Below are positions 9,249 to 32,344 of a stretch of 64,000 nt of DNA, one piece after another. Made by a program: the position numbers and the translations under genes. Below the pieces are notes generated by a model, which saw only the letters and a list, made by a program, of their open reading frames with translations, had not been told where the DNA came from and did no database searches. Source of the stretch: an uncultured Atopobium sp. (GTDB lineage: Bacteria; Actinomycetota; Coriobacteriia; Coriobacteriales; Atopobiaceae); assembly GCA_946997485.1 (NCBI GenBank), contig CAMPVF010000002.1, forward strand, positions 95,987 to 159,986, written 5' to 3'. Position 1 is the first letter of the stretch, and each line of letters begins with the position of its first letter.

Positions 9249-9363
9249 CAATCTCATGCTGCGCCGTATGTAACACGCGCCATGCCGTATGCACTTCACG
9301 TGACGCTACGCGTGAGTGCACCGTGGCGCTTAAGTGCAGTTAGAGCAAAGTGTATATACTAAT

Positions 9364-9391
9364 GCACCCAAGAGCGCATGTTCTTGGGTGC
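9364..9391. terminator. putative bidirectional stem-loop between convergent proS and aroQ
   Basis: GCACCCAAGA-gcgcatgt-TCTTGGGTGC forms a 10-bp perfect inverted repeat, followed by a U-containing tract ATTGGTTGTATT. Confidence 0.35.
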
Positions 9392-9471
9392 ATTGGTTGT
9401 ATTATGTACGGAGCAAAAGTTAGGCTTTACGCTTTACGCTTTACGCGCGCGATTCCTTCTTATCTGCCGCC

Positions 9472-10617
9472 TTACGCGCCTCTCGTTTCGTGTATGTGCT
9501 GCGCCAACAGATGCATTGCTTCGGCATATCCGTCGATACCTTTACCCATTACGGTTGCAATACACGCTGGTCGAATGTATGAAATTTGGCGAAAGTCTTC
9601 GCGGGCGGGAACATCAGAAATATGGACTTCAACTGTTGGAATGTTTACGGCTTTAAGGGCATCGAGCAGTGCAATTGATGTGTGCGTGTATGCTGCCGGA
9701 TTAAACACAATGCCTTCATACACCCCGCGGGCTTGCTGAATTGCGTCTACAAGCTCGCCTTCGTGATTCGATTGGAAACACACACAGCTGGCAAAGCCCT
9801 CACGCTGCGCCGATGTTTCGCACACGTCAATAAGATGCGAATATGTTTGATTGCCATAAATGCCCGGCTCACGCAAGCCCAATAAATTGATATTGGGACC
9901 GTTAAGCACAAGAACATGAAGCTCGTCATGCGCACCCTTACGTGTATGCGCATGTGCGGTTTGTACGTGCTCGTCATCTACAACGTCGAAATTAAGAAGC
10001 GTATCGTTTGCGGCAGCCTGCCTTGAGGGTTGCCTGGTATTTTGTGCGGGTGTATTGGATTTTTGCTCACCTGCTTCATGTGCACCTGGCTCGCTTAACA
10101 GCAGCATACGCGTAAGCTCCTCTGCTTCTGATAGTCCCGCACATTGGAAGGCACCTTGCGCACCTTTTGTGTGCAGCTGCCCATAGGGGCGCACCGCATC
10201 GCTTACATTGTGCGGCAGGTGGCTGTGCTCGTCTGGCGTGTTCTGTGCACTTGTGGTTGCGCGCACGTCATGTACGTGCACGTCAAGAGCGGGTTTGTTT
10301 GTCATGCGCGCACCCGTTGGCTTTTGTGCGCCTGCGGTGTTATCGCATGCCGTAAGATCGTTTGGCAAGCCTGTTATATTGCAAAATGCCGAAAAAATAT
10401 TTTGCACTTTTGTTGGTCTACACACAATTTCGTAGCTGGTATCGTTTCGTTGAAGAAGACCAAGAACGCCCGAGAGGTTTTCGATACCTTCTGCATCGAT
10501 GAGCGTTGGCGTGGCAACGTGCACACGCAGGCGCGTCATACACAGTGCATTAGCTCGAATATTATTTTTACCGCCCAAACACGCAAGAATTGAGGCGGCA
10601 ATCTCTTCGTAGGTCAT
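9472..10617 (-). CDS. aroQ: type II 3-dehydroquinate dehydratase with N-terminal PTS EIIB(Glc-family)-like domain and low-complexity linker
   Basis: The C-terminal ~150 aa carry type II DHQase motifs (VLNGPNINLLGLREPGIYG, HISDV...ARE). The N-terminal ~85 aa match the EIIB pattern GGKNNI..ALCMTRLRV with the phosphocysteine motif C-(I/M)-TRLR. Between them lies ~140 aa rich in Q/A/T/H. Confidence 0.75.
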   Translation of the reverse strand: MTYEEIAASILACLGGKNNIRANALCMTRLRVHVATPTLIDAEGIENLSGVLGLLQRNDTSYEIVCRPTKVQNIFSAFCNITGLPNDLTACDNTAGAQKPTGARMTNKPALDVHVHDVRATTSAQNTPDEHSHLPHNVSDAVRPYGQLHTKGAQGAFQCAGLSEAEELTRMLLLSEPGAHEAGEQKSNTPAQNTRQPSRQAAANDTLLNFDVVDDEHVQTAHAHTRKGAHDELHVLVLNGPNINLLGLREPGIYGNQTYSHLIDVCETSAQREGFASCVCFQSNHEGELVDAIQQARGVYEGIVFNPAAYTHTSIALLDALKAVNIPTVEVHISDVPAREDFRQISYIRPACIATVMGKGIDGYAEAMHLLAQHIHETRGA

Positions 10618-10849
10618 AGCAACTTCCTTGGTCTAAAACTACATCGTATAGAAGTATACGGATAGAAGGCGTTGATGTGGCGTATAGCAGCTTGTTATTT
10701 TGCAAACGCGGCAATTTTCGCCGTGAGTGACAGCCCATCGCGCATATCTTCATGATATGTACGTAAATCGTTCGTATGATATGTGGTGTTGATAGTCGCG
10801 CGCTGCAGTCTTGTTGCTATACACAACGTGCCCTGCGCTGCCGTGCAAA

Positions 10850-12184
10850 TTAGTGCGTTATGCAGGCAAGTATATGACGCGCGCTTTCTTGGGGCGTTGC
10901 ATCAAGTGCGCAGGTATAATCTGCCCACGCGGTATAGCGGGGCATGCGCCTGCGTGCAAGTTCTTCAACACCAACCGAAGCTGAAAGCGGGCGTTTATAC
11001 AACGAGAGCAATTCAAGCGGGCGTGTAAGCAGCACAATAGCAGCTTGTTGATGCAGACATGCATAGTTTTCTTCTCGGCACACAATACCGCCACCGCAGG
11101 CAATAACGCGTGAGGGTTCTTTTGCCACCTTGGCACACACGGCATGCTCTTTTTCGCGAAAAGCATCTTCGCCATACTGCTGTATAAATTCATGGGGTGG
11201 CATAGCATACATCGCTGTAAATTCCGCGTCTAAGTCGACAAAGGTTTTACCGCACAGCGCCGCCAGCGCACGCCCGCACGTAGTTTTGCCTACGCCCGGC
11301 ATACCAATAAGTGCAATCGATTGCTCATTGGCACAAATTTGCTGTACGATGGGTCTAATGCGTGCTACATCGTGGTGCGTGTCTAAAAAGAGGTTGCTTG
11401 AGAATAGCGCCTGTGCAACAAGCATATACAAACCCTGAACATAAGGAATACCAAGCGTTTCTGCTGCCATGCATAAGCCGCTGCGAAGGGGATTATATAC
11501 CACATCTACCACGGCTTTTAGCGAAGAAAATGTACGCATCTGTTCGAGCGAGAGAATCGACTGCGGGCAGGCTGGATACATGCCAACAGGCGTTGTGTTT
11601 ACTATGATAGTGGCATCGGTATGCGCTCGCATAATCTCGTCGTATGACGTTGCACCTTGCGTATCTGCTACTACCATAGATGCGCCAAGCAGCCCAAGCG
11701 CCGTTTGCACAGCACGCGACGCGCCGCCATTGCCACAAATAACAACCTTGTGTTGCGCGAGAAGATTGTTTTTGTATCCTTTGGGAGCAGTTGCCATGGC
11801 TTGAATAATGTCGTCAACATTGACGGCAGGAATACAATTGTTGGTTGCCAAAAAGTCAAGCAACATCATCGTAAAACCAAGCACGTCGGTATTCTCTGCA
11901 AAAATACTACCGTCGGCTTGCTTAACCAGGGTATTTGCCGCGCCGGTAAGCTCTACCAGCATACTTTTATGTGTGCTGAGGCTGCAAACAACCTGTTTAT
12001 AGGGAATGGTAACGTTAAGTCCGCGCCAGGCGCCGTTTGTAACAAACGCCGCAACATCATCGGGCTCTTGTTCAAAAAGCGCATAGGGATAGCTTCCAAG
12101 CTGCTTGTGAATGTAGGGCGACCAGCTGTGTGCAAGCGTGCGACCCAGTAAGCCAAATTGAGCATTGTTGTTGTGCGCTGTCAT
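10850..12184 (-). CDS. aroE: bifunctional shikimate dehydrogenase (N-terminal) / shikimate kinase (C-terminal) fusion
   Basis: N-terminal AroE-like sequence (SWSPYIHK..., NVTIPYK) and a C-terminal P-loop IALIGMPGVGKTTCGRALA typical of AroK. Confidence 0.8.
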   Translation of the reverse strand: MTAHNNNAQFGLLGRTLAHSWSPYIHKQLGSYPYALFEQEPDDVAAFVTNGAWRGLNVTIPYKQVVCSLSTHKSMLVELTGAANTLVKQADGSIFAENTDVLGFTMMLLDFLATNNCIPAVNVDDIIQAMATAPKGYKNNLLAQHKVVICGNGGASRAVQTALGLLGASMVVADTQGATSYDEIMRAHTDATIIVNTTPVGMYPACPQSILSLEQMRTFSSLKAVVDVVYNPLRSGLCMAAETLGIPYVQGLYMLVAQALFSSNLFLDTHHDVARIRPIVQQICANEQSIALIGMPGVGKTTCGRALAALCGKTFVDLDAEFTAMYAMPPHEFIQQYGEDAFREKEHAVCAKVAKEPSRVIACGGGIVCREENYACLHQQAAIVLLTRPLELLSLYKRPLSASVGVEELARRRMPRYTAWADYTCALDATPQESARHILACITH

Positions 12185-13396
12185 TTATATCACCTCAGTA
12201 TATGAACCAAGATAGCGAACGTCACTACATACGTTGAGCAGTGCCCGAATAAGCGCGTCAAATTCTGGCGCAACAACAGGGCATTTTATGTCGAAGTAAA
12301 ACATAAACTCAAAATCGTGACCCACAATTGGCCTACTTTCGAGCTTAATAATGTTTATGCCAAGCGCGTAAAAACAGCGCAAAATTTTGTACAAGCTGCC
12401 TGGCTGGTGCGCGGCAGTAAGCATAAGGCTTGTTCTATCTGCACCTGGATAAATTTCGAGCGTTTTGGTAATGCAGGCAAAACGCGTGTAGTTGTTATCG
12501 GAGTCTTGAATGTCCTCTTTTAGCACTTTGAGTTTGTATAAATCGGCACACGAAGCTGAAGCAATAGCTGCAACGTGTGTATCCTGCGATGTAGCAACCA
12601 TTTGCGCAGCAATAGCCGTATTTTTAACGCGATGAATTTCAGCATGTGGCATTGTTTGCAAAAAGTTGGTGCACTGCGACAGAGCCTGTGGGTGAGAGTA
12701 GATGTGAGTAATCTCATCGAGCGGCAATTCTTTTTTTGCAAGCAGCGTGTGATCAATTTTAAGGCGTGTTGTGCGCGCAATACTAAAGGCATGTTTGCGC
12801 ATAAGGTCGAATACCTGCGTTACCGAGCCTGCGGTGCTGTTTTCGAGCGGCACAATGCCGTATTCACATTCGCCTTTCTCAACTGCGTCAAACACGTCTT
12901 CAAAATGCGGATAGTAGGTAAGTTGTGCATGATTAAAGAGTTTATCCGCGGCAAGCTGCTGATATGCGCCTTCTGCACCCTGCAGTGCAACACGCGCTAC
13001 ATGTGGGAATACGTTCGCTGTTTCATGCTGCGCATTAATGATGTGCTGCAGCATTGCGGGCGTTTCGCTCTTGCGTCCTGCTTGATGATTGCGTGAGAGC
13101 TCCATAATAAGCTCAAAAATTGTTTGAAATTCTTCGGTATGCTCTTTGGGACTTATGGCATACAGCGCGTAAAGGTGCTCGCGTTCGCGTGCACTGTCGA
13201 GGATGGGCAGCTTATGTGCGCGTTTGTATGCAGCAATGCGCTCAGCGCAGTCAAGGCGCTGTTTAAGCAGATCAACAAGGGTGGTGTCGATAGTGTTTAT
13301 CTCGTCGCGCGCAGCAAGCAGGGCGTTTGTATCCTCAGCTTCCTGCGGCGTTTGCACGGGCTTTGTAGTATTTGGTGACGAAGAGTGATGTTGCAT
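12185..13396 (-). CDS. pheA: bifunctional chorismate mutase / prephenate dehydratase (P-protein)
   Basis: N-terminal AroQ-class chorismate mutase helix (LLAARDEINTIDTTLVDLLKQRL), a PDT domain, and a C-terminal ACT domain containing ESRP. Confidence 0.85.
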   Translation of the reverse strand: MQHHSSSPNTTKPVQTPQEAEDTNALLAARDEINTIDTTLVDLLKQRLDCAERIAAYKRAHKLPILDSAREREHLYALYAISPKEHTEEFQTIFELIMELSRNHQAGRKSETPAMLQHIINAQHETANVFPHVARVALQGAEGAYQQLAADKLFNHAQLTYYPHFEDVFDAVEKGECEYGIVPLENSTAGSVTQVFDLMRKHAFSIARTTRLKIDHTLLAKKELPLDEITHIYSHPQALSQCTNFLQTMPHAEIHRVKNTAIAAQMVATSQDTHVAAIASASCADLYKLKVLKEDIQDSDNNYTRFACITKTLEIYPGADRTSLMLTAAHQPGSLYKILRCFYALGINIIKLESRPIVGHDFEFMFYFDIKCPVVAPEFDALIRALLNVCSDVRYLGSYTEVI

Positions 13397-13420
13397 ACGT
13401 ACCTATCTTTTATTTGTCGT

Positions 13421-14677
13421 TTATTGCTGCTCGTCTAGGAGCATATCCATAATTGTAAATGCGCACATAGCTTCAACAACAACGCATGCACGGGGAACGA
13501 TGCACGGGTCGTGACGACCAGAAATGCGCAAAAGAGCCGGTTGTTTTGTTGCTATATCAACCGACTGTTGTACATGACCTATCGATGGTGTGGGTTTTAT
13601 ACCAACGCGGACAAATACGGGCTCACCGGTACTTATACCGCCAAGCACGCCGCCTGCATGATTGGTTTCAAAGATAACGTCGCGTGCATGCGCGTCTGAG
13701 CGGCGACGCCAGCGCTCAGCATCAGCTTGAGGATTGGTGTTGTTTTCACAGGTAGATGTGTCGTGCGCGTTTGCGGCTGCCGCGTTTGTAGCATCTGTAG
13801 CATCTGATGTGTCTGCGGCATAGGTCATCTGGTCGTTGTGTTCCGATCCGCGCATGAGGCACGCACCAAATCCTTCGCCAAATTCAACGGCCTTAACAGC
13901 AGGAATACCAAAGAGTGCGCACGCGAGCTTGTTTTCCAAGCCGCCAAACATACCGCTGCCAATACCTGCAGGAACGCCGGTACACACACATTCTATGGTG
14001 CCGCCTACGCTATCGGCATCGCGCCGCGCGTCGTCTATATACGCGCTCATGGCTTGCGCAGCGTCGGCGTTAATGGTGCATAGTTCGTGAGGATGTGCGC
14101 ACGTGCGCTCTTCAAGCGTTTGCAGCTGTGCTTTAAGCACGCTACGACCGTGTTTGCTTCTATCGGCAAATGCAAATGTGTCGTCATGAATAGTGCCAAT
14201 AGACGCTACGTGTGCCATTACGCGCACGCCATGAGCCTGCAAATATTGCTTTGCAAGACCACCTGCAATGCATATACCTGCAGTAAGTCGGCCCGAAAAA
14301 TGTCCGCCACCGCTTATATCTTGAAAACCATGATAGCGCCGCCAGGCAGCATAATCGCTGTGCCCGGGGCGAAGTATATGACTGAGCGTTGCATAATCGC
14401 CCGAGCGTGTGTTGGTGTTTTGGATAATGCCGCAGATAGGAGCGCCACAGCTTGTGCCCTGTGCCGAGAAACCCGAAACAAAATGCACAGTGTCGGCTTC
14501 TTTGCGCGGCGTTGCAAATGAAGCAAAGCCGGGTGCGCGTCGTTGCATAAACTGCGTCAATGCTTCGAAGTTGGGGGTAAACCCTGCGGGAAAACCGTCG
14601 AGAACGCAGCCAATGGCATCGCTATGCGACTGACCAAATATCGAAAGAGTAAGACGGGTACCAATGCTCGATGACAT
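13421..14677 (-). CDS. aroC: chorismate synthase (with ~50 aa low-complexity insertion)
   Basis: N-terminal FGQSHSDAIGCVLDGFPAG and conserved C-terminal core. An insertion rich in D/T/A/N sits at roughly aa 283-335. Confidence 0.9.
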   Translation of the reverse strand: MSSSIGTRLTLSIFGQSHSDAIGCVLDGFPAGFTPNFEALTQFMQRRAPGFASFATPRKEADTVHFVSGFSAQGTSCGAPICGIIQNTNTRSGDYATLSHILRPGHSDYAAWRRYHGFQDISGGGHFSGRLTAGICIAGGLAKQYLQAHGVRVMAHVASIGTIHDDTFAFADRSKHGRSVLKAQLQTLEERTCAHPHELCTINADAAQAMSAYIDDARRDADSVGGTIECVCTGVPAGIGSGMFGGLENKLACALFGIPAVKAVEFGEGFGACLMRGSEHNDQMTYAADTSDATDATNAAAANAHDTSTCENNTNPQADAERWRRRSDAHARDVIFETNHAGGVLGGISTGEPVFVRVGIKPTPSIGHVQQSVDIATKQPALLRISGRHDPCIVPRACVVVEAMCAFTIMDMLLDEQQ

Positions 14678-14679
14678 GG

Positions 14680-16023
14680 TTAATCCTCCTTAATTTCGAT
14701 ATAACCGCCAAGTTCAATGAAGTCTTCAAAAAACGACGGATACGATTTAGCAACACATTCGGCTCCAATAAGAGTGCAGGAACGGCTTGAACCAGCTGCA
14801 CAAATAGCAGCCATCATAGCAATGCGGTGATCGTTTGCACACGACACGGTACCTGCGCCATTAAGACGACCGCGACCGTGAATATAAATAGCATCATCAT
14901 CAGCGGTAATGTCGGCGCCCAGGGCACTTAGCGCGCGTGTAATTGCTACAATGCGATTTGATTCTTTGAGCTGCAGACGATGCGCGCCTGTAAGTGTTGT
15001 ATTACCCCAGGCAAAACACGCTGTTGCGGCTAGTGGGGGAGCAAGATCGATAATATCGTTAAGCTCAAGTGTGCAGCCGCGCATGAGTTTTGCATGTACT
15101 TCAACAGCGTGTTCTTGTTGTTCTACATGCGCGCCAAAGTTCATAAGACATGAAAGAATGCGCCTATCACCCTGAAGACTTGCAAGGTTAAGGCCTTCAA
15201 CACGAATGTTATGACCCATTGCACCTGCAGCGAGCCAAAAACTTGCATTCGACCAATCGGCTTCAACTACAACAGGCTGGAGCGGACAGCGCATCTGCGT
15301 GCCGTTCACGGCAAATACCCACGGATCGGACGTGTTTTCTGGTTTGGTAACTTCTACCTGCACACCAAAGTATGACAGTGCTTGTATGGTCATCGATACG
15401 TAGTCTTGCGATTCAAAGGGTGCTTCAACCACAATTGTAAACGCTGCTTGAGCTGCACATGCAGCAAGAAGCAGCCCTGAGATATACTGGCTTGACACGT
15501 TTCCTTTGAGCTTAAATGTTGTTGCAGTAAGCGCGCCCGTAAGCGTAAAAGGAAATTCGCCCTGCTCGGAAAGGGTAATACCTGCATTGCTCAAAAGAGA
15601 ATAGAGTGGCTCGAGTGGGCGCTGTGCCAAGCGCTTTGCACCAACAAAACAAAATGAGCCACCAAGGGCAGCACATACAGCAACCATGAAGCGAAATGTT
15701 GAACCCGACTCTTTGCAGTTGAGTATGGGCATGTCTTCTAAGCGAGCGGGGGTGTTGTCGGCGGATATAGCCTCTTTTGGCGCAGAAGAATATTGCGAGC
15801 GTATGCCGCGTATGCGCCAGCCACGTTTTGTTTTGGTAATGCGCGCACCGAGCGCTTCGAGGCATGATACCGTGGTGTCGATGTCTTGCGACGTTGTCGT
15901 GCAATCTACATCAACTATCCCATCGCTTAATGCAGCAAGAATTAAAATACGGTGTGCCATCGATTTTGACGATATCGCACGAATGGTACCCGATAATTGA
16001 TGTGGCTCAATGATAACGTTCAA
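14680..16023 (-). CDS. aroA: 3-phosphoshikimate 1-carboxyvinyltransferase (EPSP synthase)
   Basis: 447 aa matching the EPSPS fold, with ISSKSMAHRILILAALSDG at the N-terminus. Confidence 0.9.
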   Translation of the reverse strand: MNVIIEPHQLSGTIRAISSKSMAHRILILAALSDGIVDVDCTTTSQDIDTTVSCLEALGARITKTKRGWRIRGIRSQYSSAPKEAISADNTPARLEDMPILNCKESGSTFRFMVAVCAALGGSFCFVGAKRLAQRPLEPLYSLLSNAGITLSEQGEFPFTLTGALTATTFKLKGNVSSQYISGLLLAACAAQAAFTIVVEAPFESQDYVSMTIQALSYFGVQVEVTKPENTSDPWVFAVNGTQMRCPLQPVVVEADWSNASFWLAAGAMGHNIRVEGLNLASLQGDRRILSCLMNFGAHVEQQEHAVEVHAKLMRGCTLELNDIIDLAPPLAATACFAWGNTTLTGAHRLQLKESNRIVAITRALSALGADITADDDAIYIHGRGRLNGAGTVSCANDHRIAMMAAICAAGSSRSCTLIGAECVAKSYPSFFEDFIELGGYIEIKED

Positions 16024-16138
16024 TGTTATGCCTTTCGTGTGTTGTCTTGCTCTGTGTGCCTTTTATGCAGCTCATGCATCGTGCACATCTCACGTTACGC
16101 GCGCTCGAGACTGGCGTACATGACGCGCATGCCGCGCG

Positions 16139-17245
16139 TTATGCGCCAAGATCGAGCAGCTCGCGCATTTCTTGTATGGGAATCGTTTTAAGCTCTGCGT
16201 GTCCAATGGTTGGCGTAAGCACAATGGTAATGGTATCGCCGCGGCGCTTTTTATCATGCAAAATAAACGGATAGAGTTCATTTGGCAAAAACGGCGTGCG
16301 AATAGGCAGATCGTAGCTGGTAAGAATGTCCTCAAGCTGGCGTGCAATGTTGCTATCAGCCCAGCCTTTGCGTGCGGCTGCACGCATCATGTAGCACATG
16401 CCCATACCAACACAGCTTCCATGACCAATACTAAAGTTCGATGCCGCTTCAATGGCATGTCCAATCGTATGGCCAAAATTGAGCACCTGACGTATGCTCG
16501 ATTCACATTCATCTTGAGAAACCACCTGCGCTTTAATTTCTGCGCAGCGACGAATCGACGCACAGGTGTGCGCGCTTATAGGCTCGTTTGCGTGAATATC
16601 ATCGGTAAGGCGATGAGAAGAAAGCTCCTCAAAAAGTGCTGCATCAGCCATCGCGCCATACTTAATTACTTCACCACACGCATCATGAAGCACGTTTTTT
16701 GGCAGGGTAGTAAGGGTAGCAGGGTCAATAATAACTGCCTGAGGCTGAGTAAAGCTACCCACAAGATTTTTGCCAGCTTCTAAATCGACTGCTGTTTTGC
16801 CGCCAATAGACGAATCAACCATGGCTAAAAGCGACGTTGGAATATGTATAAGTTGAATGCCACGCATGTAAAGCGCTGCACACAAACCGCCCATATCGCC
16901 CGTAACACCGCCACCAAGTGCAATAATGCAATCGGAGCGTGTAAGTTCATAGCCTGCGATACGCTCAAGCATACGTGCGCAAGTAGGAATGGTTTTATGC
17001 TGCTCACCTGCAGGAAACTCCACAATATGAGCAAGAACACCAGCCTCGTTAAGCGCATCACACACTATATGCCCGTAGAGCGCAGCAACCGTGCTATCAC
17101 TGATAACGCATATACGTGAAGCGTCTGTAACACTCATTACCAGCTTGGCTATATGGGAGAGAGCGCCCGTTTCAACAACAATGGGGTAGCGTTTACTTGC
17201 ACACGACACCATAATGGCGTCGTGATTGTTATCATGGATACTCAT
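16139..17245 (-). CDS. aroB: 3-dehydroquinate synthase
   Basis: 368 aa with the GGGVTGDMGG NAD-binding motif and metal-binding His residues. Its start overlaps the tyrA stop by 4 nt. Confidence 0.9.
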   Translation of the reverse strand: MSIHDNNHDAIMVSCASKRYPIVVETGALSHIAKLVMSVTDASRICVISDSTVAALYGHIVCDALNEAGVLAHIVEFPAGEQHKTIPTCARMLERIAGYELTRSDCIIALGGGVTGDMGGLCAALYMRGIQLIHIPTSLLAMVDSSIGGKTAVDLEAGKNLVGSFTQPQAVIIDPATLTTLPKNVLHDACGEVIKYGAMADAALFEELSSHRLTDDIHANEPISAHTCASIRRCAEIKAQVVSQDECESSIRQVLNFGHTIGHAIEAASNFSIGHGSCVGMGMCYMMRAAARKGWADSNIARQLEDILTSYDLPIRTPFLPNELYPFILHDKKRRGDTITIVLTPTIGHAELKTIPIQEMRELLDLGA

Positions 17246-18231
17246 GAGCTCTTCTCAGCCTTTCGTTCTGCTTGTCGTTTAAGCGCATCGCCCTGTTCAA
17301 GAAGCTGCGTAAGCGTTTCTGCATCTGCATCGTCGAGCGCCTGTTTGTAGCGCGCAAGCTCGTGTATGAGCAGGTCAATTTCGTGGGAGAGATTATCGCG
17401 GTTGTCCATAAAAAGTTCGCACCACATAACGGGATTGAGTCTGGCTACACGCGTGAGATCTTTATACGATCCGGCTGAAAATCCTTTGTGCATTTGCGCT
17501 GCTGGACTCTTTACGTACGCGTTTGAGACCACGTGTGCCAGCTGTGATGTGTAGGCAATTTGCTGGTCGTGGAATTGTGGTGTTGCGTTGCAGTACGAAG
17601 CAAAACCACAAGGCTCCAAAAGCTTCTGCAGACGTGCTGCCAGCGTGTGTGCATCGGCTTGTGGCTTTGTTGTATTATCTGCGCAGCATACAACCATGGG
17701 TGCTTTGTTAAACATGTTTGCGCGCGCATGAGCAAAGCCCGAATATTGGGTACCTGCCATAGGGTGGCAGCCAATAAAATGCCACGGATAATTTTTGGCG
17801 AGTGAAAAACAATAATCGCAGGTAGCACGCTTTACACCTGCAGTATCAATAACAAGTGCATCGGGGCTTATATACTGAGCATTACGCACAAGCCACTCTT
17901 GGTTTGCATGCGGATATAACGCAAGGATAATAAGTTCACAAAAAGGAATGGTGTCGGGTGTAAGTGTGCCGCATCCAAGCTCATCTAACGCGAGCGCGCA
18001 CGTATTGGGGTTTCTCTCATATATGTACAGTTGAGTTGAGTGCGATGGATTATGTGAGTTTTGAGCGGCAGCGGCAAATGCTTTTGCAAACGAACCGCCA
18101 ATAAGTCCCAAACCTACTACACCTATGGTACGCGGAATAAATGCTGTGGGATGCTGGTTTTGTTGGGTATCTGTACCCTGCTTCGCACCCTGTTGTGCAT
18201 TCTGGTTGTGTTGAGCAGAAATAACTGTCAC
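17242..18231 (-). CDS. tyrA: prephenate dehydrogenase
   Basis: IGVVGLGLIGGSFAKAF Rossmann motif and PDH family architecture. It is the first CDS of the aro supraoperon. Confidence 0.8.
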   Translation of the reverse strand: MTVISAQHNQNAQQGAKQGTDTQQNQHPTAFIPRTIGVVGLGLIGGSFAKAFAAAAQNSHNPSHSTQLYIYERNPNTCALALDELGCGTLTPDTIPFCELIILALYPHANQEWLVRNAQYISPDALVIDTAGVKRATCDYCFSLAKNYPWHFIGCHPMAGTQYSGFAHARANMFNKAPMVVCCADNTTKPQADAHTLAARLQKLLEPCGFASYCNATPQFHDQQIAYTSQLAHVVSNAYVKSPAAQMHKGFSAGSYKDLTRVARLNPVMWCELFMDNRDNLSHEIDLLIHELARYKQALDDADAETLTQLLEQGDALKRQAERKAEKSS

Positions 18232-18311: not shown

Positions 18312-18388
18312 TGGTGACCCCGGCGGGGTTCGAACCCGCGACCTTTCGCTCCGGAGGCGAACGCTCTCATCCACTGAGCTACGGGGCC
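18312..18388 (-). tRNA. tRNA-Arg (anticodon CCG)
   Basis: The reverse complement reads GGCCCCGTAGCTCAGTGGATGAGAGCGTTCGCCTCCGGAGCGAAAGGTCGCGGGTTCGAACCCCGCCGGGGTCACCA. This gives a 7-bp acceptor stem with one GU pair, a D-arm, an anticodon loop CUCCGGA (CCG), a T-arm GGTTCGAAC and an encoded CCA. Confidence 0.85.
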
Positions 18389-18560: not shown

Positions 18561-18829
18561 ACACGTACCACTAAGATGTATGCGTGGCGTACAGCCGCGC
18601 CATGGTTCCGCGCGTTTGCTTGCGCACGCTGCACACCCGCTGTGAGCGCTTTTGTTGTTGGTGGAGAGTATATGTATGCCTTACTCATATTATGTTATTT
18701 AGTTACAAGTTGTATCAGCATTTTGCGCGTGCTTTATAGTAATACCAATGCGCACGCGTATGTGCTTGCCGCACCATGCGTATGCGCACACTATCGTTAC
18801 GCTAAAAAAGCAGCAGCTAGGAGTTTTGC

Positions 18830-21274
18830 ATGGTTACAACTGCTCATACACAGAACGTTTCGTCTGCGTTCGACGCTTATGAAGGCTTAAGCTCGGCGCA
18901 GGTTACCACGTGCATTCAGCAGGGGCTTTGCAATACCAATTCCGACATCAAAACAAAAAGCATCTCGCAAATTGTTGCCACGCACGCGCTTACCCTTTTT
19001 AATGTTGTAAACATTGTGCTTGCTATTTTGGTGCTTACAACAGGGCAGTTTCGCAATATCTTGTTTATGGTTATTGTGTTTCTCAACCTTGTGATTGGTA
19101 TTTCGCAAGAAATCCGCGCCAAGCTCCTTGTTGACAAGCTGTCTATTGTGAGTGCAAAAAAGGTGCGCGTTATTCGCGATCATATGCAGCAATCTATCCA
19201 TATAAACGATATTGTTCTCGGCGATTATGTGCTGTTATCCCGCGGTGAGCAGGCGCCCGCCGACGGCAGCGTTATCGCAGGTGCTGCGTCTATGGACGAA
19301 AGCTTGCTTACGGGCGAAAGTAATCCTATCGAAAAAACAACAGGCGCTCCCATTTACTCGGGTTCGTTTGTCGATTCGGGCAGCATGCTCTATAAGGTTG
19401 AGCATGTAGCAGGCGATTGTTATGCTGCTAAAATTAACAATGCGGCAAAATACGTAAAACCGCTTTCAAGCGAAATTGTTATTACAATAAAAACGATTAT
19501 TTCGTATGCAACAATGGTGCTTATTCCTCTTGGAATATTGTTGTTTATCCGTATGTTTTGCATCGATCATCAATCGTACAACGACGCTATTTTGCAAGCA
19601 GTAGCTGCTACGGTGGGGATGATTCCGCAAGGCTTGGTGTTGCTTACGTCTACCATTTTTGCTATAGCTACCACAAAGCTTGCCTATAAGCACGTGCTTG
19701 TTCAGCAAAGCTATTGTGTCGAAACGCTTGCGCGTGTTGATGTTGTGTGTCTTGATAAAACAGGAACCATTACCACAGGTCACATGCGTGTAACCCGTGT
19801 TATCGATGCTACAGGGAGCGATGATGAGGCACATACGCGTCCGCTTTGTCGCGCTGTGTCGGCTATTTCGTTTGCAACGCGTGATGCTGCCAATGAAACG
19901 GCACGCGCGCTTATCGACTTTGTGGATATTGCGTCCTTTAGCAGCGCCGATATTGCGCGTAGTATTCCGTTTTCGTCACGTACAAAATATTCCGGCTGCA
20001 TTACAACCGATGGACACGCGTATGTGATGGGTGCGCCTCAATTTGTATTGGGCGCGCGTGCGGACAACTACAACAGTGCTATCGAGTCGTTTGCTGCTAT
20101 GACACGTGTGCTTGTTGTTGCTGAGTGCGCGGGCTTTGATGACCATGGTCACATTGTGTACACGTGCCACGATGCCCGCGATGGCGCGTGCAACCATGCA
20201 TCTGAAGATGGCGTGCGCGTGCTTGGCTTTGTTGGTATTGCCGAGGAAATTCGCGAAAGTGCACCTTCTACCATTGCATATTTTAAGCAAGAGGGGGTAG
20301 ACGTGCGCGTTATTTCGGGCGATGACCCTCGCAGTGTTTCGCAAATTGCACAAACAGTGGGCGTTGTCGATGCCGATAAGTATATCGATTGCTCTTCGCT
20401 TGAAGGCGATGAGGCTATTTCGCGCGCTGCCATGCAGTATCACGTGTTTGGTCGCGTAACTCCGCAGATTAAACAGCGTTTAGTTACCGCGCTTCAGCAT
20501 CAGGGGCATATTGTTGCTATGACGGGCGATGGTGTAAACGACATCCTTGCCCTTAAAGAAGCCGATTGCTCTATTGCTATGGCACAAGGGTCGGCGGCTG
20601 CGCGCAATGTGTCTGAGCTCGTGCTTGCCGATAATGATTTTTCGCACATCCCCGACATTGTGGTTGAAGGTCGTCGCTCTATCAACAATCTGCAGCGTTC
20701 TGCTGCACTGTTTTTAACCAAAACGGTTTATTCGGGGCTGCTTGCACTTATCTGTTTGTTGTGTCCGCCTTATCCGTTTATCCCTATTCAAATGTCGCTC
20801 ATTAATGTTGCAGCCATTGGTTTGCCGTCATTTTTGCTTGCGCTTGAGGTAAATCGCGCGCGCGTTGAAGGCTCGTTTCTTGCGCACGTGCTGGTGCGAA
20901 GCATACCTGCGTCTATTGTTATCGTTGCGCAGCTTGTGTTTACGATGCTGTATGGCCGCGCCTGCGCTATTCCCGATAGCAGCATCTCCACGTTGTGCAT
21001 GATAGAAATGTCTTGTGTGGGCATCGCCCTTATCTTGCGCATCTCAACGCCGCTTAATGTGCTGCGTAGCTGCGTTCTGTTTTTCAGCATTGCTATTGTT
21101 ATAATTGGGTATACGTGCTTATCCGACTTTTTACGCATGGGCGCGCTTACGTCTTCAATGATGATGCTCTGTGCGGCAATCTCGCTTGTTGGCGTTGTGC
21201 TCTTTTTTGTGTTTTACGCGTATGCCGAAAAGCACTACCCACTTTTAGCTGAGCTTTCTTTAAAAAAGCGGTAG
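18830..21274 (+). CDS. cation-transporting P-type ATPase (E1-E2 type, likely Ca2+/Mg2+ class)
   Basis: CLDKTGTITTG phosphorylation motif, MTGDGVNDILALKEADCSIAM hinge motif, and 8-10 TM segments. An AGGAG RBS precedes the start. Confidence 0.85.
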   Translation: MVTTAHTQNVSSAFDAYEGLSSAQVTTCIQQGLCNTNSDIKTKSISQIVATHALTLFNVVNIVLAILVLTTGQFRNILFMVIVFLNLVIGISQEIRAKLLVDKLSIVSAKKVRVIRDHMQQSIHINDIVLGDYVLLSRGEQAPADGSVIAGAASMDESLLTGESNPIEKTTGAPIYSGSFVDSGSMLYKVEHVAGDCYAAKINNAAKYVKPLSSEIVITIKTIISYATMVLIPLGILLFIRMFCIDHQSYNDAILQAVAATVGMIPQGLVLLTSTIFAIATTKLAYKHVLVQQSYCVETLARVDVVCLDKTGTITTGHMRVTRVIDATGSDDEAHTRPLCRAVSAISFATRDAANETARALIDFVDIASFSSADIARSIPFSSRTKYSGCITTDGHAYVMGAPQFVLGARADNYNSAIESFAAMTRVLVVAECAGFDDHGHIVYTCHDARDGACNHASEDGVRVLGFVGIAEEIRESAPSTIAYFKQEGVDVRVISGDDPRSVSQIAQTVGVVDADKYIDCSSLEGDEAISRAAMQYHVFGRVTPQIKQRLVTALQHQGHIVAMTGDGVNDILALKEADCSIAMAQGSAAARNVSELVLADNDFSHIPDIVVEGRRSINNLQRSAALFLTKTVYSGLLALICLLCPPYPFIPIQMSLINVAAIGLPSFLLALEVNRARVEGSFLAHVLVRSIPASIVIVAQLVFTMLYGRACAIPDSSISTLCMIEMSCVGIALILRISTPLNVLRSCVLFFSIAIVIIGYTCLSDFLRMGALTSSMMMLCAAISLVGVVLFFVFYAYAEKHYPLLAELSLKKR

Positions 21275-26981: not shown

Positions 26982-27647
26982 ATGCGACTTGCAACGCACT
27001 CATTAGCTCCACGATCACTTACGTTATGTGCGCTTATCTGCTTTATTATCCACTTAGCGTTTGTACCTGCTATTACGCTTGGAGCGGGACATATTCACAT
27101 GGCGCTTATCTTTACCGGCCTTGTAAGCTTAAGTGAAGGCGGCACACGTGGCATTTGGGCAGGCTTTTTTTCGGGCTTGTTGTTTGATATATATGCGCCT
27201 GGTGCATGGGGCATGCTCAGTTTGTTACTCTGCATCGCTGCCTTTTGTTTGGGCGCCGACCAGCGCAATCGCATACAAGACAATCTCCTTGTGGCGTCAT
27301 CGCTGTTTTCTGCCGCGTGCCTTGCTGTTGTTGTTGTTCAGCTTATATGTATGCTTGCTGCAGGGTATGTAACCGATTTTATTGCAGCGCTCATCTACCG
27401 CGTGCTGTCGGTGTGGATTTTAACATCGCTTGCTTTTGTTCCTGCCGCATGGTTGTATCGAAAATATGTTGCTGCACCTGCGCTTGAGGGTTCTCACGCG
27501 CGTCCCAGCAACGCTCAATCGCTCAGCGCGCACATTGCATCAAGCATTGCAACTACCTTTTCAAAAAAGCGCACGGTTGCTCACATGCCTCATTCTCATT
27601 CAAAACTGCGCGTCTCTTACAAAAGTCGCTATAAGCTGCGCGGGTAG
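26982..27647 (+). CDS. mreD: putative rod shape-determining protein MreD (polytopic membrane protein)
   Basis: A 5-TM small membrane protein directly downstream of mreC and upstream of PBP2. The call rests mainly on position. Confidence 0.55.
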   Translation: MRLATHSLAPRSLTLCALICFIIHLAFVPAITLGAGHIHMALIFTGLVSLSEGGTRGIWAGFFSGLLFDIYAPGAWGMLSLLLCIAAFCLGADQRNRIQDNLLVASSLFSAACLAVVVVQLICMLAAGYVTDFIAALIYRVLSVWILTSLAFVPAAWLYRKYVAAPALEGSHARPSNAQSLSAHIASSIATTFSKKRTVAHMPHSHSKLRVSYKSRYKLRG

Positions 27648-31109: not shown

Positions 31110-31183
31110 GCGCCGCGCCCGGCAGCCCAGCGCTCGGTCTTCACCTGTGCATCAACAAACGCCGTGCTCAAAAGGATTGTATT

Positions 31184-32344
31184 ATGATACAACACGCAAT
31201 ACACACTGCTTCTTATGGTTCCTCAGCGCCGCAGGTGCTGGTATTTTGTGTGTCATCAGGCGTATCTGCCACCCTTGTTTCGCAGCTTCGCTCAGCGTTT
31301 GTGCCGCGTACGCGCGATGTTACGGTAGAAGTAACGACGCCTGCATCTCTTGTGCACTATCGCGCAAATTACGTTGTTCATCTTGCCTGCGCGTCTGCGT
31401 CTGCCACGCCTCATGCGGACGACGCTTCTTTTCGTGCGGCTTCTCAGCTGCGTGCAAACGATGATGCCGAGCGTGTTGTATCGTATGTTGAGCGTACTGG
31501 CTGCAACCTTGTTGTACTTGCGTCTTCTGCTCGTGAACTTCCGCTTGCTTATCTTGCTCGCCAGGCAGGAAATGTTGGCACAACAATGTCGTGGCAGGTG
31601 TTTACGTCACCCGAACCTCGCACGTTGTGTCTGCAGCTTATTGACATGCTTTTGCATACTCCATCTGCAGCGTTGTATTGTGCCGCGTTTGCCTGCTGCC
31701 ACATGCGCGCCGCCCACACACTTATTTCAACAAGCGCTACCAGCGTGCGTGCTCTGAGCGAAAAAAAGCACCTTGTAGTGCCTTTCTTGCCACGGATATT
31801 TCGTATTGGCGATATGCCTTTTATGGTGTTCGAGCAGCTGTCCATGGTGCAGCGTTTGCAAAATAAGGGGCTTGCACCTCGCAGCTCATCTTTACGCACG
31901 TCATTTCATCCGGCACTTTTATGCGCACTTGCTTGCTGCGCCTTTGGTGCGCGTGCGTGTGCGCGCGGTATAACGCGCCGCGTGCCGTTTGGTGGTTTTC
32001 TTGTTCGTCCTGCTATTGCATCGTTGTGTACGTATGTGTTTGGGTATGCGTACCTGCTAAGCACCTATATGGCGTCAGCTGAGCCGCAGCGTTTGGCAAA
32101 CGCGTCTGCCCACCCAAACGAAGGTGCACCAGCAGCGGCTATAGCACCAACAGCACCTACAGCTACCACGCAAAACGCGGCTCTTTCTCAAGCGCCTGTC
32201 CCTGCGCCTACACAAACGTGCAAATCTTATGTATATCACCCAGAAACGGATGCAAAATTGAGCAATATGCAAGATAATAAGGAGCTGTCTTTTAATGCTC
32301 AACAGCTACATACGCGTGAGTACATAGATATCACAAGTTCTTAG
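31184..32344 (+). CDS. hypothetical Ala/Cys/Ser-rich protein of unknown function
   Basis: A long ORF with no competing ORFs on other frames and AAAAGGA before the ATG at 31184. The N-terminal segment QVLVFCVSSGVSATLV faintly resembles Cys-loop phosphotransfer folds, and there is no confident family. Confidence 0.4.
   Translation: MIQHAIHTASYGSSAPQVLVFCVSSGVSATLVSQLRSAFVPRTRDVTVEVTTPASLVHYRANYVVHLACASASATPHADDASFRAASQLRANDDAERVVSYVERTGCNLVVLASSARELPLAYLARQAGNVGTTMSWQVFTSPEPRTLCLQLIDMLLHTPSAALYCAAFACCHMRAAHTLISTSATSVRALSEKKHLVVPFLPRIFRIGDMPFMVFEQLSMVQRLQNKGLAPRSSSLRTSFHPALLCALACCAFGARACARGITRRVPFGGFLVRPAIASLCTYVFGYAYLLSTYMASAEPQRLANASAHPNEGAPAAAIAPTAPTATTQNAALSQAPVPAPTQTCKSYVYHPETDAKLSNMQDNKELSFNAQQLHTREYIDITSS

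What the first reader, a model, noticed from the sequence alone, without database searches (positions are those of the whole stretch)
9472..10617. PTS EIIB(Glc)-like domain fused to type II 3-dehydroquinate dehydratase
The last gene of the aro supraoperon encodes 381 aa. Residues ~1-85 match the glucose-family PTS EIIB domain, including the GGKxNI...C-(I/M)-TRLR-V phosphocysteine loop (CMTRLRVHV). Residues ~230-381 form a normal type II DHQase. A ~140 aa low-complexity linker rich in Q/A/T/H joins them. No EIIC/EIIA partner is adjacent. An EIIB phosphocarrier fused to a shikimate-pathway enzyme suggests possible PTS-phosphorylation-dependent control of aromatic biosynthesis, or a moonlighting or degenerate EIIB. 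The gene is also separated from aroE/K by an unusually long 232-nt gap that could hold its own promoter.
Basis: partly seen in the sequence, partly recalled or inferred. Interest (0 to 1): 0.7.

Follow-up and report, generated by a model that had tools for sequence, protein, structure and literature searches.

The report
PTS EIIB domain fused to dehydroquinase
A vaginal Fannyhessea/Atopobium bacterium, like most of its family, makes its shikimate-pathway dehydroquinase with an intact sugar-phosphotransferase (PTS) EIIB phospho-acceptor domain attached, which may link aromatic amino-acid synthesis to sugar/PEP supply and has not been studied.

Summary
ORF 9472-10617 (-) encodes 381 aa in three parts:
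- A glucose-class PTS EIIB domain (PF00367, 36.7 bits, cutoff 27), with Cys26 in CMTRLR aligned to the active-site cysteine loop (CITRLR) of E. coli IIB(Glc).
- A 140-aa disordered linker.
- A catalytically complete type II dehydroquinase (PF01220, 179.8 bits).

It is not an assembly artefact. The identical protein occurs in many independent assemblies.

It is also not rare. The fusion is the normal aroQ of Atopobiaceae (Fannyhessea, Parafannyhessea, Olsenella, Olegusella, Thermophilibacter, Tractidigestivibacter). It is always the last gene of the aro cluster, and databases name it only "type II 3-dehydroquinate dehydratase".

The EIIB is not degenerate:
- Cys26, Thr28, Arg29 and Arg31 are invariant.
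- dN/dS is about 0.37, against about 1.0 for the linker.
- The fusion EIIBs form one clade whose nearest relatives are MurP-like EIIBC transporters.

Two things are new here: two conserved short motifs in the linker, and an exact TATACT hexamer in 51 of 62 upstream gaps, which supports a separate promoter.

No PTS partner lies nearby. PTS-dependent control of the enzyme is the best hypothesis, but it is untested. I found no paper describing the fusion.

The parts
9472..10617 (-). Complete CDS of the EIIB-linker-type II dehydroquinase fusion (381 aa plus stop)
   Evidence: ORF list. Pfam PF00367 and PF01220 both above cutoff. Identical product found in many independent assemblies.
10342..10617 (-). 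Glucose-class PTS EIIB domain, residues 1-92
   Evidence: PF00367, 36.7 bits. Aligns to E. coli IIB(Glc) structures 1O2F, 3BP3 and 1IBA. AF2 pLDDT above 92 with helix-strand-strand-helix-strand-strand-helix order. Mean pairwise identity in the family 55%; dN/dS about 0.37.
10525..10542 (-). Phosphocysteine loop C26-M-T-R-L-R31 (Cys26 codon at 10540-10542)
   Evidence: Aligned to the CITRLR loop of E. coli IIB(Glc). C26, T28, R29, L30 and R31 are invariant in 72 sequences. C[M/A]TRLR is present in 120 of 120 homologues.
9931..10341 (-). Intrinsically disordered linker, residues 93-229
   Evidence: pLDDT below 50. Family identity 15%, length 34-194 aa, median net charge -14.5, dN/dS about 1.0. 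Length varies 379-391 aa within the species cluster.
10270..10287 (-). Conserved linker motif 1, L111-D-V-H-V-H116; family pattern [LI]-x-V-x-[IV]-[STN]
   Evidence: V113 is at least 90% conserved. Alignment view. Predicted as a short strand at low confidence in homologue P0108.
10096..10131 (-). Conserved linker motif 2, an acidic stretch followed by an L-x-x-[LM]-L helix (S163-EAEELTRMLLL-174)
   Evidence: L168 and L172 are at least 90% conserved. Alignment view. Predicted helix 164-174 at pLDDT about 60, and helix 123-135 in P0108.
9475..9930 (-). Type II 3-dehydroquinate dehydratase domain, residues 230-381
   Evidence: PF01220, 179.8 bits. TIGR01088 above cutoff. Best solved relative 8IDR, E = 1.4e-40. 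Foldseek match to 8IDU: target TM-score 0.94, rmsd 1.2 A. Catalytic residues R249, Y254, N306, H312, D319, E330, H332, R339 and R343 are invariant; N242 and S334 are at least 90% conserved.
10618..10849 (-). 232-nt intergenic gap between aroE/K and the fusion gene
   Evidence: Coordinates. A gap of 103-451 nt (median 173) is present in 61 of 62 related loci. No Rfam match. RNA fold no better than shuffles, z = -0.11.
10653..10658 (-). Conserved TATACT hexamer, a candidate -10 promoter element, 41 nt upstream of the ATG
   Evidence: Exact TATACT in 51 of 62 orthologous gaps, against 7.0 +/- 2.4 in shuffles and 2 on the opposite strand. Density 4.46 per kb in gaps against 0.020 per kb in the rest of the same loci. 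Window position.
10623..10629 (-). Shine-Dalgarno-like AAGGAAG
   Evidence: Read directly from the sequence.
9358..9397 (.). 18-bp stem hairpin between the convergent proS and fusion genes; probable bidirectional terminator that ends the aro cluster
   Evidence: Terminator-like scan.
10850..18231 (-). Rest of the aro cluster: tyrA 17242-18231, aroB 16139-17245, aroA 14680-16023, aroC 13421-14677, pheA (CM-PDT-ACT) 12185-13396, aroE-aroK fusion 10850-12184
   Evidence: Pfam. The same order appears in other assemblies and in relatives.

Best explanation
**What it is.** The gene encodes the aro cluster's only 3-dehydroquinate dehydratase, a type II enzyme with all catalytic residues. No other DHQase gene is present in the cluster. 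Attached at its N-terminus is a glucose-class PTS EIIB domain that looks phosphorylation-competent, joined by a long, disordered, mostly acidic linker.

**Origin and upkeep.**
- The fusion arose once, in an ancestor of most Atopobiaceae. Its EIIB module came from the MurP/sucrose-type EIIBC lineage.
- It has been inherited vertically and kept under purifying selection.
- It is probably transcribed from its own conserved promoter at the 3' end of the aro cluster.

**Most likely mechanism (inferred, not shown).**
- Cys26 accepts a phosphoryl group from an EIIA(Glc)-class domain of the cell's PTS: PEP -> EI -> HPr -> EIIA -> Cys26.
- The domain therefore reports the PTS phosphorylation state, that is, sugar flux and the PEP/pyruvate ratio.
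- Phospho-EIIB and dephospho-EIIB would engage the two conserved linker motifs (LxVxI strand, acidic LxxLL helix) and/or the DHQase oligomer differently. That would tune DHQase activity, assembly or partner binding.
- The logic is that the shikimate pathway consumes two PEP per chorismate, so flux would be matched to PEP and carbon supply.

**Status of each step.**
- Shown: the architecture, its conservation, its single origin and the cis-element.
- Inferred: phosphotransfer and any effect on DHQase.
For: **Architecture and reality**

**Active site kept**
- C[M/A]TRLR is present in 120 of 120 homologues.
- G15, G16, N19, C26, T28, R29, L30 and R31 are invariant across 72 sequences that are only 41-59% identical to the query, apart from one same-species sequence at 93%.

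**Selection**
- dN/dS is 0.37 for EIIB, 0.25 for DHQase and 0.99 for the linker.
- Mean pairwise identity is 55%, 71% and 15% respectively.

**Single origin**
- Fusion EIIBs form one clade (45 of 45) in 44 of 50 bootstrap replicates.

**Spread**
- 279 species genomes encode a relative of this EIIB type.
- 65 of the 80 best loci have EIIB and DHQase in one complete reading frame, nearly all directly after pheA-aroEK.
- Two more loci are cut by a contig end (L010, L061) and one looks frameshifted (L064).

**Only recurrent non-transporter context**
- Among the 148 nearest cluster representatives, 23 carry DHquinase_II and 22 carry EIIC. No other partner occurs more than once.

**The linker is not a passive tether**
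- It contains two conserved short motifs.
- These are predicted as a strand and a helix at low confidence.

**PTS present in the family**
- MurR-MurQ-EIIBC-MupG clusters occur in Lancefieldella parvula and Thermophilibacter immobilis. Homologues are named from Olsenella.
- F. vaginae ATCC BAA-55 expresses PTS IIA and IIB genes (PMC11410844). The type strain carries the fusion (L011).

**Own promoter**

**Metabolic logic**
- DAHP synthase and EPSP synthase each consume one PEP. This is established biochemistry, not a result from these tools.
Against: - There is no direct evidence of phosphorylation or of any effect on DHQase.
- No EI, HPr, EIIA(Glc) or EIIC gene lies in the 64-kb window or within 6 kb of any fusion locus.
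- I could not show an EIIA(Glc)-class donor in any fusion-bearing genome. Co-occurrence was shown only at genus level and, for unspecified PTS classes, at strain level.
- AF2 monomer models do not dock the EIIB or the linker motifs onto DHQase with confidence (pLDDT 33-62).
- The very variable, near-neutral linker could equally mean the two domains act independently.
- DHQase is not a classical flux-controlling step. DAHP synthase is, by general knowledge.
- The dN/dS values are rough, because synonymous sites are near saturation at these divergences.
Confidence: 0.45

Rival explanations
1. The EIIB is a working PTS component that acts in trans. It would be a phosphoryl donor for a separate EIIC that lacks its own EIIB, or a phosphoryl buffer. 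It is merely tethered to, or co-expressed with, DHQase and does not regulate the enzyme.
For: - The active site is intact and invariant.
- The long flexible linker would let the domain reach other partners.
- Its nearest sequence relatives are transporter EIIBs.
Against: - The Atopobiaceae EIIC proteins recovered all carry their own N-terminal EIIB.
- No EIIC is adjacent in any of about 65 loci.
- The gene is invariably placed in the aro cluster, not in a sugar operon.
- The conserved linker motifs are unexplained by this model.
Confidence: 0.15
2. The EIIB is a phosphorylation-dependent docking site displayed in many copies on the DHQase oligomer. It would sequester a regulator, as dephospho-IIB(Glc) of E. 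coli PtsG sequesters Mlc. DHQase would serve mainly as a scaffold, and the output would be transcriptional.
For: - The domain aligns to the IIB(Glc) whose complex with Mlc has been solved (3BP8 appears among the hits).
- Type II DHQases are typically dodecamers (general knowledge), which would give multivalent display.
- The conserved linker motifs look like partner-binding elements that fold on binding.
Against: - No candidate regulator was identified.
- Nothing in the window or the loci points to one.
- The oligomeric state of the fusion is unknown.
Confidence: 0.12
3. The EIIB fold has been co-opted for a role that does not involve PTS phosphorylation, such as solubility, assembly, a redox-sensitive cysteine or small-molecule binding. 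The conserved loop would be kept for that reason.
For: - No PTS partner is nearby.
- An EIIA(Glc) donor has not been demonstrated in these genomes.
- Soluble proteins made only of tandem EIIB domains, some with degenerate sites, show that this fold is used outside transporters.
Against: - Every residue of the canonical phosphoryl-transfer loop (C, T, R, L, R) and the upstream GG..N motif is invariant. This matches the pattern in bona fide transporter EIIBs.
- The fusion family shows none of the degeneration seen in some of those tandem-EIIB proteins.
Confidence: 0.15
4. This is an artefact: two adjacent genes (a small EIIB and aroQ) merged by a sequencing or assembly frameshift.
For: None. One related locus (L064) appears frameshifted, with the DHQase match not contained in the reading frame opened by the EIIB.
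Against: - The identical 381-aa product is found in many independent assemblies.
- 65 loci from different species have one continuous frame.
- All 120 best homologues are two-domain proteins.
Confidence: 0.01

Closest known systems
IIB(Glc) domain of E. coli PtsG (PDB 1O2F, 3BP3, 1IBA; in complex with Mlc in 3BP8)
   Same: Same Pfam family (PF00367). The GG-x-x-N-(6)-C-x-T-R-L-R active-site region aligns residue for residue. The predicted order of secondary-structure elements is the same.
   Different: In PtsG the domain is C-terminal to EIIC and tethered to the membrane. Here it is N-terminal, soluble, and attached to a biosynthetic enzyme with no EIIC.
N-terminal EIIB of MurP / sucrose / beta-glucoside / trehalose-type EIIBC transporters, e.g. 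the MurR-MurQ-EIIBC-MupG clusters of Lancefieldella parvula (L086) and Thermophilibacter immobilis (L087)
   Same: These are the nearest sequence relatives, about 40% identical over the domain. The domain is N-terminal in both, and both share the CMTRLR loop and the terminal LTG motif.
   Different: Homology stops at the end of the EIIB domain; the linker motifs have no counterpart. The fusion EIIBs form a separate clade. The downstream partner is DHQase rather than EIIC.
Stand-alone type II 3-dehydroquinate dehydratase (AroQ), e.g. C. glutamicum 8IDR/8IDU and M. tuberculosis 1H05
   Same: About 50% identity over the aligned domain in the structure comparison; E = 1.4e-40; target TM-score 0.94. 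All catalytic residues are conserved.
   Different: It carries a 230-residue N-terminal extension (EIIB plus linker) that the characterised enzymes lack.
NCBIfam NF011497 (PRK14905), 'triosephosphate isomerase / PTS system glucose/sucrose-specific transporter subunit IIB'
   Same: This is another curated case of a glucose-class EIIB fused to a soluble metabolic enzyme. The query's EIIB matches its EIIB part, model positions 275-349 of 357.
   Different: The enzyme is different (glycolytic TPI) and the EIIB is C-terminal. I found no functional study of it either.
PTS domains fused in cis as regulatory phospho-acceptors: PRD-containing regulators with EIIB(Gat)-like and EIIA(Mtl)-like domains (MtlR, LicR, ManR), and LacS with a C-terminal IIA(Glc)-like domain (from general knowledge, not tested here)
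   Same: They share the concept proposed here: a PTS domain in a non-PTS protein is phosphorylated by the PTS, and this changes the protein's activity.
   Different: The EIIB superfamily or domain type is different, and the targets are transcription factors or a permease rather than a biosynthetic enzyme. The analogy is mechanistic only.

Membership tests
PTS EIIB, glucose class (Pfam PF00367) | Profile score above the curated threshold | tested here: met
   36.7 bits against a cutoff of 27, residues 9-41 covering the whole 34-position model.
PTS EIIB, glucose class (Pfam PF00367) | Active-site cysteine in the N-x(2)-x-C-x-T-R-[LIVM]-R loop, with both arginines | tested here: met
   C26-M-T-R29-L-R31 aligns to the CITRLR loop of E. 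coli IIB(Glc). Invariant in the family.
PTS EIIB, glucose class (Pfam PF00367) | IIB(Glc) fold (four-stranded antiparallel sheet packed against helices) | tested here: inconclusive
   AF2 pLDDT is above 92, with H-E-E-H-E-E-H order consistent with IIB(Glc). The Foldseek list was filled by DHQase hits, so the isolated domain was never compared by fold.
PTS EIIB, glucose class (Pfam PF00367) | Physical or operonic association with a cognate EIIC | tested here: not met
   No EIIC in the polypeptide, in the 64-kb window, or within 6 kb in about 65 related loci.
PTS EIIB, glucose class (Pfam PF00367) | Phosphorylation on Cys by an EIIA(Glc)-class domain | not testable with these tools
   This needs biochemistry. 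The PTS is present in the family and in the F. vaginae type strain.
Type II 3-dehydroquinate dehydratase (PF01220 / TIGR01088 aroQ) | Profile scores above the curated thresholds | tested here: met
   PF01220 scores 179.8 against 23.3. TIGR01088 scores 171.5 against 169.85, and NF003806 scores 182.3 against 171.
Type II 3-dehydroquinate dehydratase (PF01220 / TIGR01088 aroQ) | Catalytic residues (M. tuberculosis numbering Asn12, Arg19, Tyr24, Asn75, His81, Asp88, Glu99, His101, Arg108, Arg112) | tested here: met
   The equivalents are N242, R249, Y254, N306, H312, D319, E330, H332, R339 and R343. They are invariant in the family, except N242 at 90% or more. The register comes from the alignment of query 232-375 to 1H05 residues 2-144. 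The residue roles come from general knowledge.
Type II 3-dehydroquinate dehydratase (PF01220 / TIGR01088 aroQ) | Flavodoxin-like fold matching solved DHQases | tested here: met
   Foldseek match to 8IDU: target TM-score 0.94, rmsd 1.2 A, 50% identity.
Type II 3-dehydroquinate dehydratase (PF01220 / TIGR01088 aroQ) | Pathway context (the sole DHQase of an aro cluster) | tested here: met
   The cluster tyrA-aroB-aroA-aroC-pheA-aroEK contains no other aroD or aroQ. The same is true in relatives. The rest of the genome was not examined.
Type II 3-dehydroquinate dehydratase (PF01220 / TIGR01088 aroQ) | Dodecameric assembly and enzymatic activity | not testable with these tools
   This requires multimer modelling or experiment.
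cis-fused PTS regulatory domains (PRD-regulator / LacS type) | Phosphorylation of the fused PTS domain changes the activity of the host protein | not testable with these tools
   This is a mechanistic analogy only. The EIIB superfamily differs from that of MtlR, LicR and ManR.

The most novel reading that the evidence does not exclude
The Atopobiaceae EIIB-AroQ would be the first example of a glucose-class EIIB domain used in cis as a phospho-switch on a biosynthetic enzyme. PTS phosphorylation of Cys26, read out through the conserved LxVxI and acidic LxxLL linker motifs on a multimeric dehydroquinase, would gate shikimate-pathway flux, or recruit a regulator, according to PEP and sugar supply. 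That would be a direct protein-level link between the PTS and aromatic amino-acid biosynthesis in a whole family of human- and animal-associated Actinomycetota.
Probability: 0.3. Interest if true: 0.75.

Novelty: new variant of a known kind. Interest (0 to 1): 0.55.

Why it matters
**New kind of PTS output.** The PTS is the main carbon-status sensor of many bacteria. Its known outputs act on transporters, transcription factors, adenylate cyclase and a few catabolic enzymes. A conserved, intact EIIB(Glc) domain welded to a shikimate-pathway enzyme suggests a direct output onto an anabolic, PEP-consuming pathway, which has not been described.

**Cleanly testable.** The system has one cysteine, one easy spectrophotometric enzyme assay and two short linker motifs to mutate.

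**Relevant organisms.** It occurs in Fannyhessea vaginae, a key bacterial-vaginosis organism, and in gut, oral and rumen Olsenella relatives.

**Annotation.** These proteins are currently named only "type II 3-dehydroquinate dehydratase" or "hypothetical protein", which hides the second domain.

**If the EIIB proves not to regulate DHQase**, the finding reduces to a lineage-specific domain fusion of modest interest.

Tried and rejected
1. A search of the 5.8-billion-protein index with the 96-aa EIIB alone returned nothing. This was a word-index limitation. It was replaced by the exhaustive HMMER search.
2. A regulatory RNA in the 232-nt gap: no Rfam match at gathering threshold or at E <= 1. 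The fold is no better than shuffled sequence, z = -0.11.
3. The sigma-70 consensus scan found no minus-strand promoter in the gap. The conserved TATACT emerged only from comparing orthologous gaps.
4. A terminator hairpin upstream of TATACT: no systematic structure, median z = -0.32.
5. TATACT as a general -10 box of this genome: it is not enriched window-wide, with 24 matches against 19.6 expected.
6. The linker motifs as relics of the transporter linker or first EIIC helix: the hhalign alignment ends at the LTG motif that closes the EIIB domain.
7. Same-genome co-occurrence of the fusion with an EIIBC transporter, tested by matching contig lengths and record names: no shared record was found. 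AP018530.1 carries the fusion and CP063767.1 carries the EIIBC.
8. The EIIA from L054 as a probe: dropped, because that locus looks like a low-GC Firmicute.
9. Supplementary tables of the F. vaginae transcriptome paper held no PTS or aro gene data. A second vaginal multi-omics preprint was uninformative.
10. The AFDB structure search for the architecture outside Atopobiaceae was unavailable.
11. Literature searches for EIIB with dehydroquinase, PTS_EIIB with shikimate, TPI with EIIB, and type II dehydroquinase fusions found no description of this protein.
Full report
**1. The observation**

The minus strand carries one uninterrupted ORF at 9472-10617. It has an ATG start and encodes 381 aa. 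An AAGGAAG Shine-Dalgarno-like sequence precedes the ATG.

- Pfam places PF00367 (PTS_EIIB) on residues 9-41 at 36.7 bits (gathering cutoff 27). It places PF01220 (DHquinase_II) on residues 235-371 at 179.8 bits.
- NCBIfam's aroQ equivalog TIGR01088 is passed at 171.5 against 169.85. Residues 3-99 align to the N-terminal EIIB part of sucrose, beta-glucoside, MurNAc and trehalose EIIBC models.
- Against solved structures, residues 4-54 align to E. coli IIB(Glc) (1O2F, 3BP3, 1IBA; E about 2e-6). CMTRLR lies over CITRLR, the active-site cysteine loop of IIB(Glc).
- The C-terminal half matches type II dehydroquinases at E = 1.4e-40.
- The AlphaFold2 model gives pLDDT above 92 for residues 1-92 and high confidence for 234-380. 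Most of 98-223 is below 50. The DHQase part superposes on C. glutamicum 8IDU at target TM-score 0.94 and rmsd 1.2 A.

**2. Not an artefact, and not rare**

The identical 381-aa product was called in 125 blocks of independent assemblies. The six places shown all have the order tyrA-aroB-aroA-aroC-pheA-aroEK-[gap]-fusion, convergent with proS.

- All 120 best homologues of 1252 carry both Pfam domains. The named ones are Olsenella, Thermophilibacter and Coriobacteriia, and all are annotated simply as "type II 3-dehydroquinate dehydratase".
- A scan of one genome per species with the pattern Nx[LIV]CMTRLR[ILV] found 279 genomes that encode a relative. The window matches Atopobium sp. Marseille-P4126 (OPYK01000001.1) at 100%. 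The nearest named relative is Fannyhessea vaginae.
- The same 90%-identity cluster contains WP_006303890.1 from F. vaginae PB189-T1-4.
- In 65 of the 80 best loci the EIIB and DHQase lie in one complete frame, nearly always directly downstream of pheA and aroEK. Two more fusion loci are cut by a contig end (L010, L061). One looks frameshifted (L064).
- The remaining loci are EIIBC transporter genes. They encode proteins of about 476-495 aa and come from Lancefieldella parvula, 'Atopobium sp.' MAGs, a Collinsella MAG and a Clostridiales MAG.

The genera with the fusion are Fannyhessea, Parafannyhessea, Olsenella, Olegusella, Thermophilibacter, Tractidigestivibacter and Paratractidigestivibacter, which covers most of the family Atopobiaceae. 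A few contigs labelled Bacteroidales or Oscillospiraceae carry a typical Atopobiaceae aro cluster and are probably mis-binned.

**3. The EIIB domain is maintained, not decaying**

- All 120 homologues keep C-[M/A]-TRLR.
- In 72 diverse sequences, G15, G16, N19, C26, T28, R29, L30, R31, L52, G53, E63 and V65 are invariant.
- Mean pairwise identity is 55% for EIIB, 71% for DHQase and 15% for the linker.
- Rough Nei-Gojobori dN/dS values are 0.37, 0.25 and 0.99 respectively. Synonymous sites are near saturation, so only the ranking should be trusted.
- The DHQase catalytic set is invariant or nearly so. In M. tuberculosis numbering this is Asn12, Arg19, Tyr24, Asn75, His81, Asp88, Glu99, His101, Arg108 and Arg112. 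Here the equivalents are N242, R249, Y254, N306, H312, D319, E330, H332, R339 and R343.
- This is the only DHQase in the cluster.

**4. Origin**

An exhaustive HMMER search with residues 1-96 against 1.84 billion cluster representatives gave 748 hits.

- Of the best 148, 146 are EIIB proteins. Of these, 23 also carry DHquinase_II and 22 carry EIIC. No other partner domain recurs.
- The closest non-fused relatives inside the family sit in MurR-MurQ-EIIBC-MupG clusters, that is, MurNAc-type PTS. These are found in Lancefieldella and in Thermophilibacter immobilis CP063767.1. Homologues are named from Olsenella.
- In a neighbour-joining tree of 45 fusion and 54 transporter EIIB domains, the fusion domains form a single clade in 44 of 50 bootstrap replicates. 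This indicates one fusion event followed by vertical descent.
- Profile-profile alignment of the fusion N-terminal regions against the transporter N-terminal regions is confident up to the LTG motif that ends the EIIB domain, and stops there. The linker therefore evolved after the fusion, or has diverged beyond recognition.

**5. The linker**

Its length ranges from 34 to 194 aa in the family. It differs by a few residues even within the window's own species cluster, giving total lengths of 379-391 aa. In most members it is strongly acidic, with median net charge -14.5. The window's version is unusually rich in A, T, H and Q.

Two short islands are conserved inside it:
- The first is [LI]-x-V-x-[IV]-[STN]. 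In the window this is L111-DVHV-H116, and V113 is at least 90% conserved.
- The second is an acidic run followed by L-x-x-[LM]-L. In the window this is residues 163-174, SEAEELTRMLLL, and L168 and L172 are at least 90% conserved.

AF2 predicts the two islands as a short strand and a helix, both in the window protein and in the 301-aa homologue P0108. Confidence is only 33-62 pLDDT. That is typical of elements that fold on binding a partner. What they bind is unknown.

**6. The upstream gap**

The other aro genes abut or overlap, apart from a 115-nt gap between aroB and aroA. The fusion gene, by contrast, is preceded by a gap in 61 of 62 related loci (median 173 nt, range 103-451).

- The gap has no Rfam match, no unusual RNA structure and no systematic hairpin.
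- Fifty-one of 62 gaps contain an exact TATACT on the coding strand, 35-105 nt upstream of the start codon and usually after CC(C/G). Shuffles give 7.0 +/- 2.4, and the opposite strand has it in 2.
- The density is 4.46 per kb in the gaps against 0.020 per kb in the remaining 647 kb of the same loci.
- In the window the hexamer is at 10653-10658 (-), 41 nt upstream of the ATG.

It fits the TANNNT -10 consensus of actinobacterial promoters (general knowledge). No -35 match accompanies it. I read it as a conserved promoter, or possibly an operator, that gives the fusion gene its own transcriptional control. This is inference; no transcript data were available.

An 18-bp hairpin at 9358-9397 between the convergent fusion and proS genes looks like a shared terminator.

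**7. PTS partners**

- Nothing PTS-like other than this EIIB exists in the 64-kb window. This rests on a phmmer search with HPr, Crr and 13 EIIBC queries and on Pfam scans of all major ORFs.
- No fusion locus has a PTS gene within 6 kb.
- The family does have the PTS, in the MurNAc-type EIIBC clusters described above. F. vaginae ATCC BAA-55 expresses genes annotated as PTS IIA and IIB (PMC11410844). To my knowledge this is the type strain, the same as DSM 15829, which carries the fusion in L011.
- I could not confirm an EIIA(Glc)-class donor in any fusion-bearing genome. This is the main gap in the argument.

**8. Interpretation**

What is shown:
- It is a real two-domain protein that is widespread in one bacterial family and arose once.
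- Its EIIB keeps the complete phosphoryl-transfer signature under purifying selection.
- Its DHQase is complete and is the only one in the aro cluster.
- Its linker carries two conserved motifs.
- Its gene has a conserved upstream element of its own.

What is inferred:
- Cys26 is phosphorylated by the PTS, and this modulates DHQase activity, assembly or partner binding.
- The metabolic rationale is that the pathway spends two PEP per chorismate and that the PTS phosphorylation state tracks PEP and sugar availability. Both are established biochemistry.

I put this at about 0.45. The rivals are:
- a trans-acting EIIB with no effect on the enzyme (0.15);
- a multivalent docking scaffold for a regulator, by analogy with Mlc and IIB(Glc) (0.12);
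- a co-opted fold that is not phosphorylated (0.15);
- an artefact (0.01 or less).

**9. Comparison with what is known, and novelty**

The two halves individually are ordinary members of PF00367 and PF01220. One usual attribute of EIIB, association with an EIIC, is tested and not met.

- The nearest curated analogue is NCBIfam NF011497, a TPI/EIIB fusion, which the query's EIIB also matches.
- The nearest mechanistic precedents are PTS domains fused in cis to PRD regulators or to LacS (general knowledge). These involve other domain classes and non-enzyme targets.
- No paper in the searchable library describes an EIIB-dehydroquinase.

The sequences are already in public databases and the Pfam architecture is precomputed, so the fusion itself is not a discovery. 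Its conservation pattern, single origin, linker motifs, dedicated cis-element and functional implication appear to be undescribed.

I rate it a new variant of a known kind, with interest 0.55.

Noticed in passing
Proteins P0122, P0160, P0123, P0134, P0156: These are soluble proteins built only of 3-5 tandem glucose-class EIIB domains, with no EIIC. P0122 (4 domains) and P0160 (3 domains) keep every CxTR[LIV]R site. P0123, P0134 and P0156 keep only one intact site, and their other sites are degenerate (CSTRVT, CSTRLK, CFTKLR). Their taxonomy is unknown.
   Followed up: partly
window 10850-12184 (-): The gene upstream is itself a fusion of shikimate dehydrogenase (AroE) and shikimate kinase (AroK), 444 aa. 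It is conserved next to the EIIB-AroQ gene in nearly all related loci.
   Followed up: partly
window 18312-18388 (-) and 18667-18672 (-): A tRNA-Arg(CCG) lies between the divergently transcribed P-type ATPase gene (18830-21274, +) and tyrA, directly upstream of the aro cluster. A second intergenic TATACT lies about 280 nt upstream of the tRNA.
   Followed up: no
window 9358-9397: An 18-bp-stem hairpin sits between the convergent proS and EIIB-aroQ genes. It is a likely bidirectional terminator.
   Followed up: no
window 9931-10341 (-); cluster members: Members of the same 90%-identity cluster are 379, 381, 389 or 391 aa long. The disordered linker therefore carries indel polymorphism within the species.
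   Followed up: no
whole window: No DAHP synthase gene is present in the aro cluster or anywhere in the 64 kb. The first committed and classically regulated step of the pathway is encoded elsewhere.
   Followed up: partly
window 26982-27647 (+), 30944-32344 (+), 35017-35628 (+): Three sizeable ORFs (221, 466 and 203 aa) have no Pfam match at E <= 1e-4. The first follows mreB-mreC and may be mreD. The 466-aa ORF overlaps the end of the FtsW/RodA gene.
   Followed up: no
L025, L031, L032, L038, L044, L050 (genome-contig loci): Contigs from bins labelled Oscillospiraceae, Alloprevotella, Bacteroidaceae or Paludibacteraceae carry the EIIB-aroQ fusion, and most also show the upstream pheA-aroEK genes typical of Atopobiaceae. 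They are probably mis-binned or mislabelled MAG contigs.
   Followed up: no
L064:6001-6846: In this rumen MAG the DHQase match is not contained in the reading frame opened by the EIIB. This could be a frameshift, a pseudogene or an assembly error.
   Followed up: no
L054:56-5404: A low-GC (Clostridiales-labelled) MurR-MurQ-EIIBC-MupG cluster is followed by a Crr-like EIIA(Glc) gene. The Atopobiaceae versions of the cluster (L086, L087) have no adjacent EIIA.
   Followed up: partly
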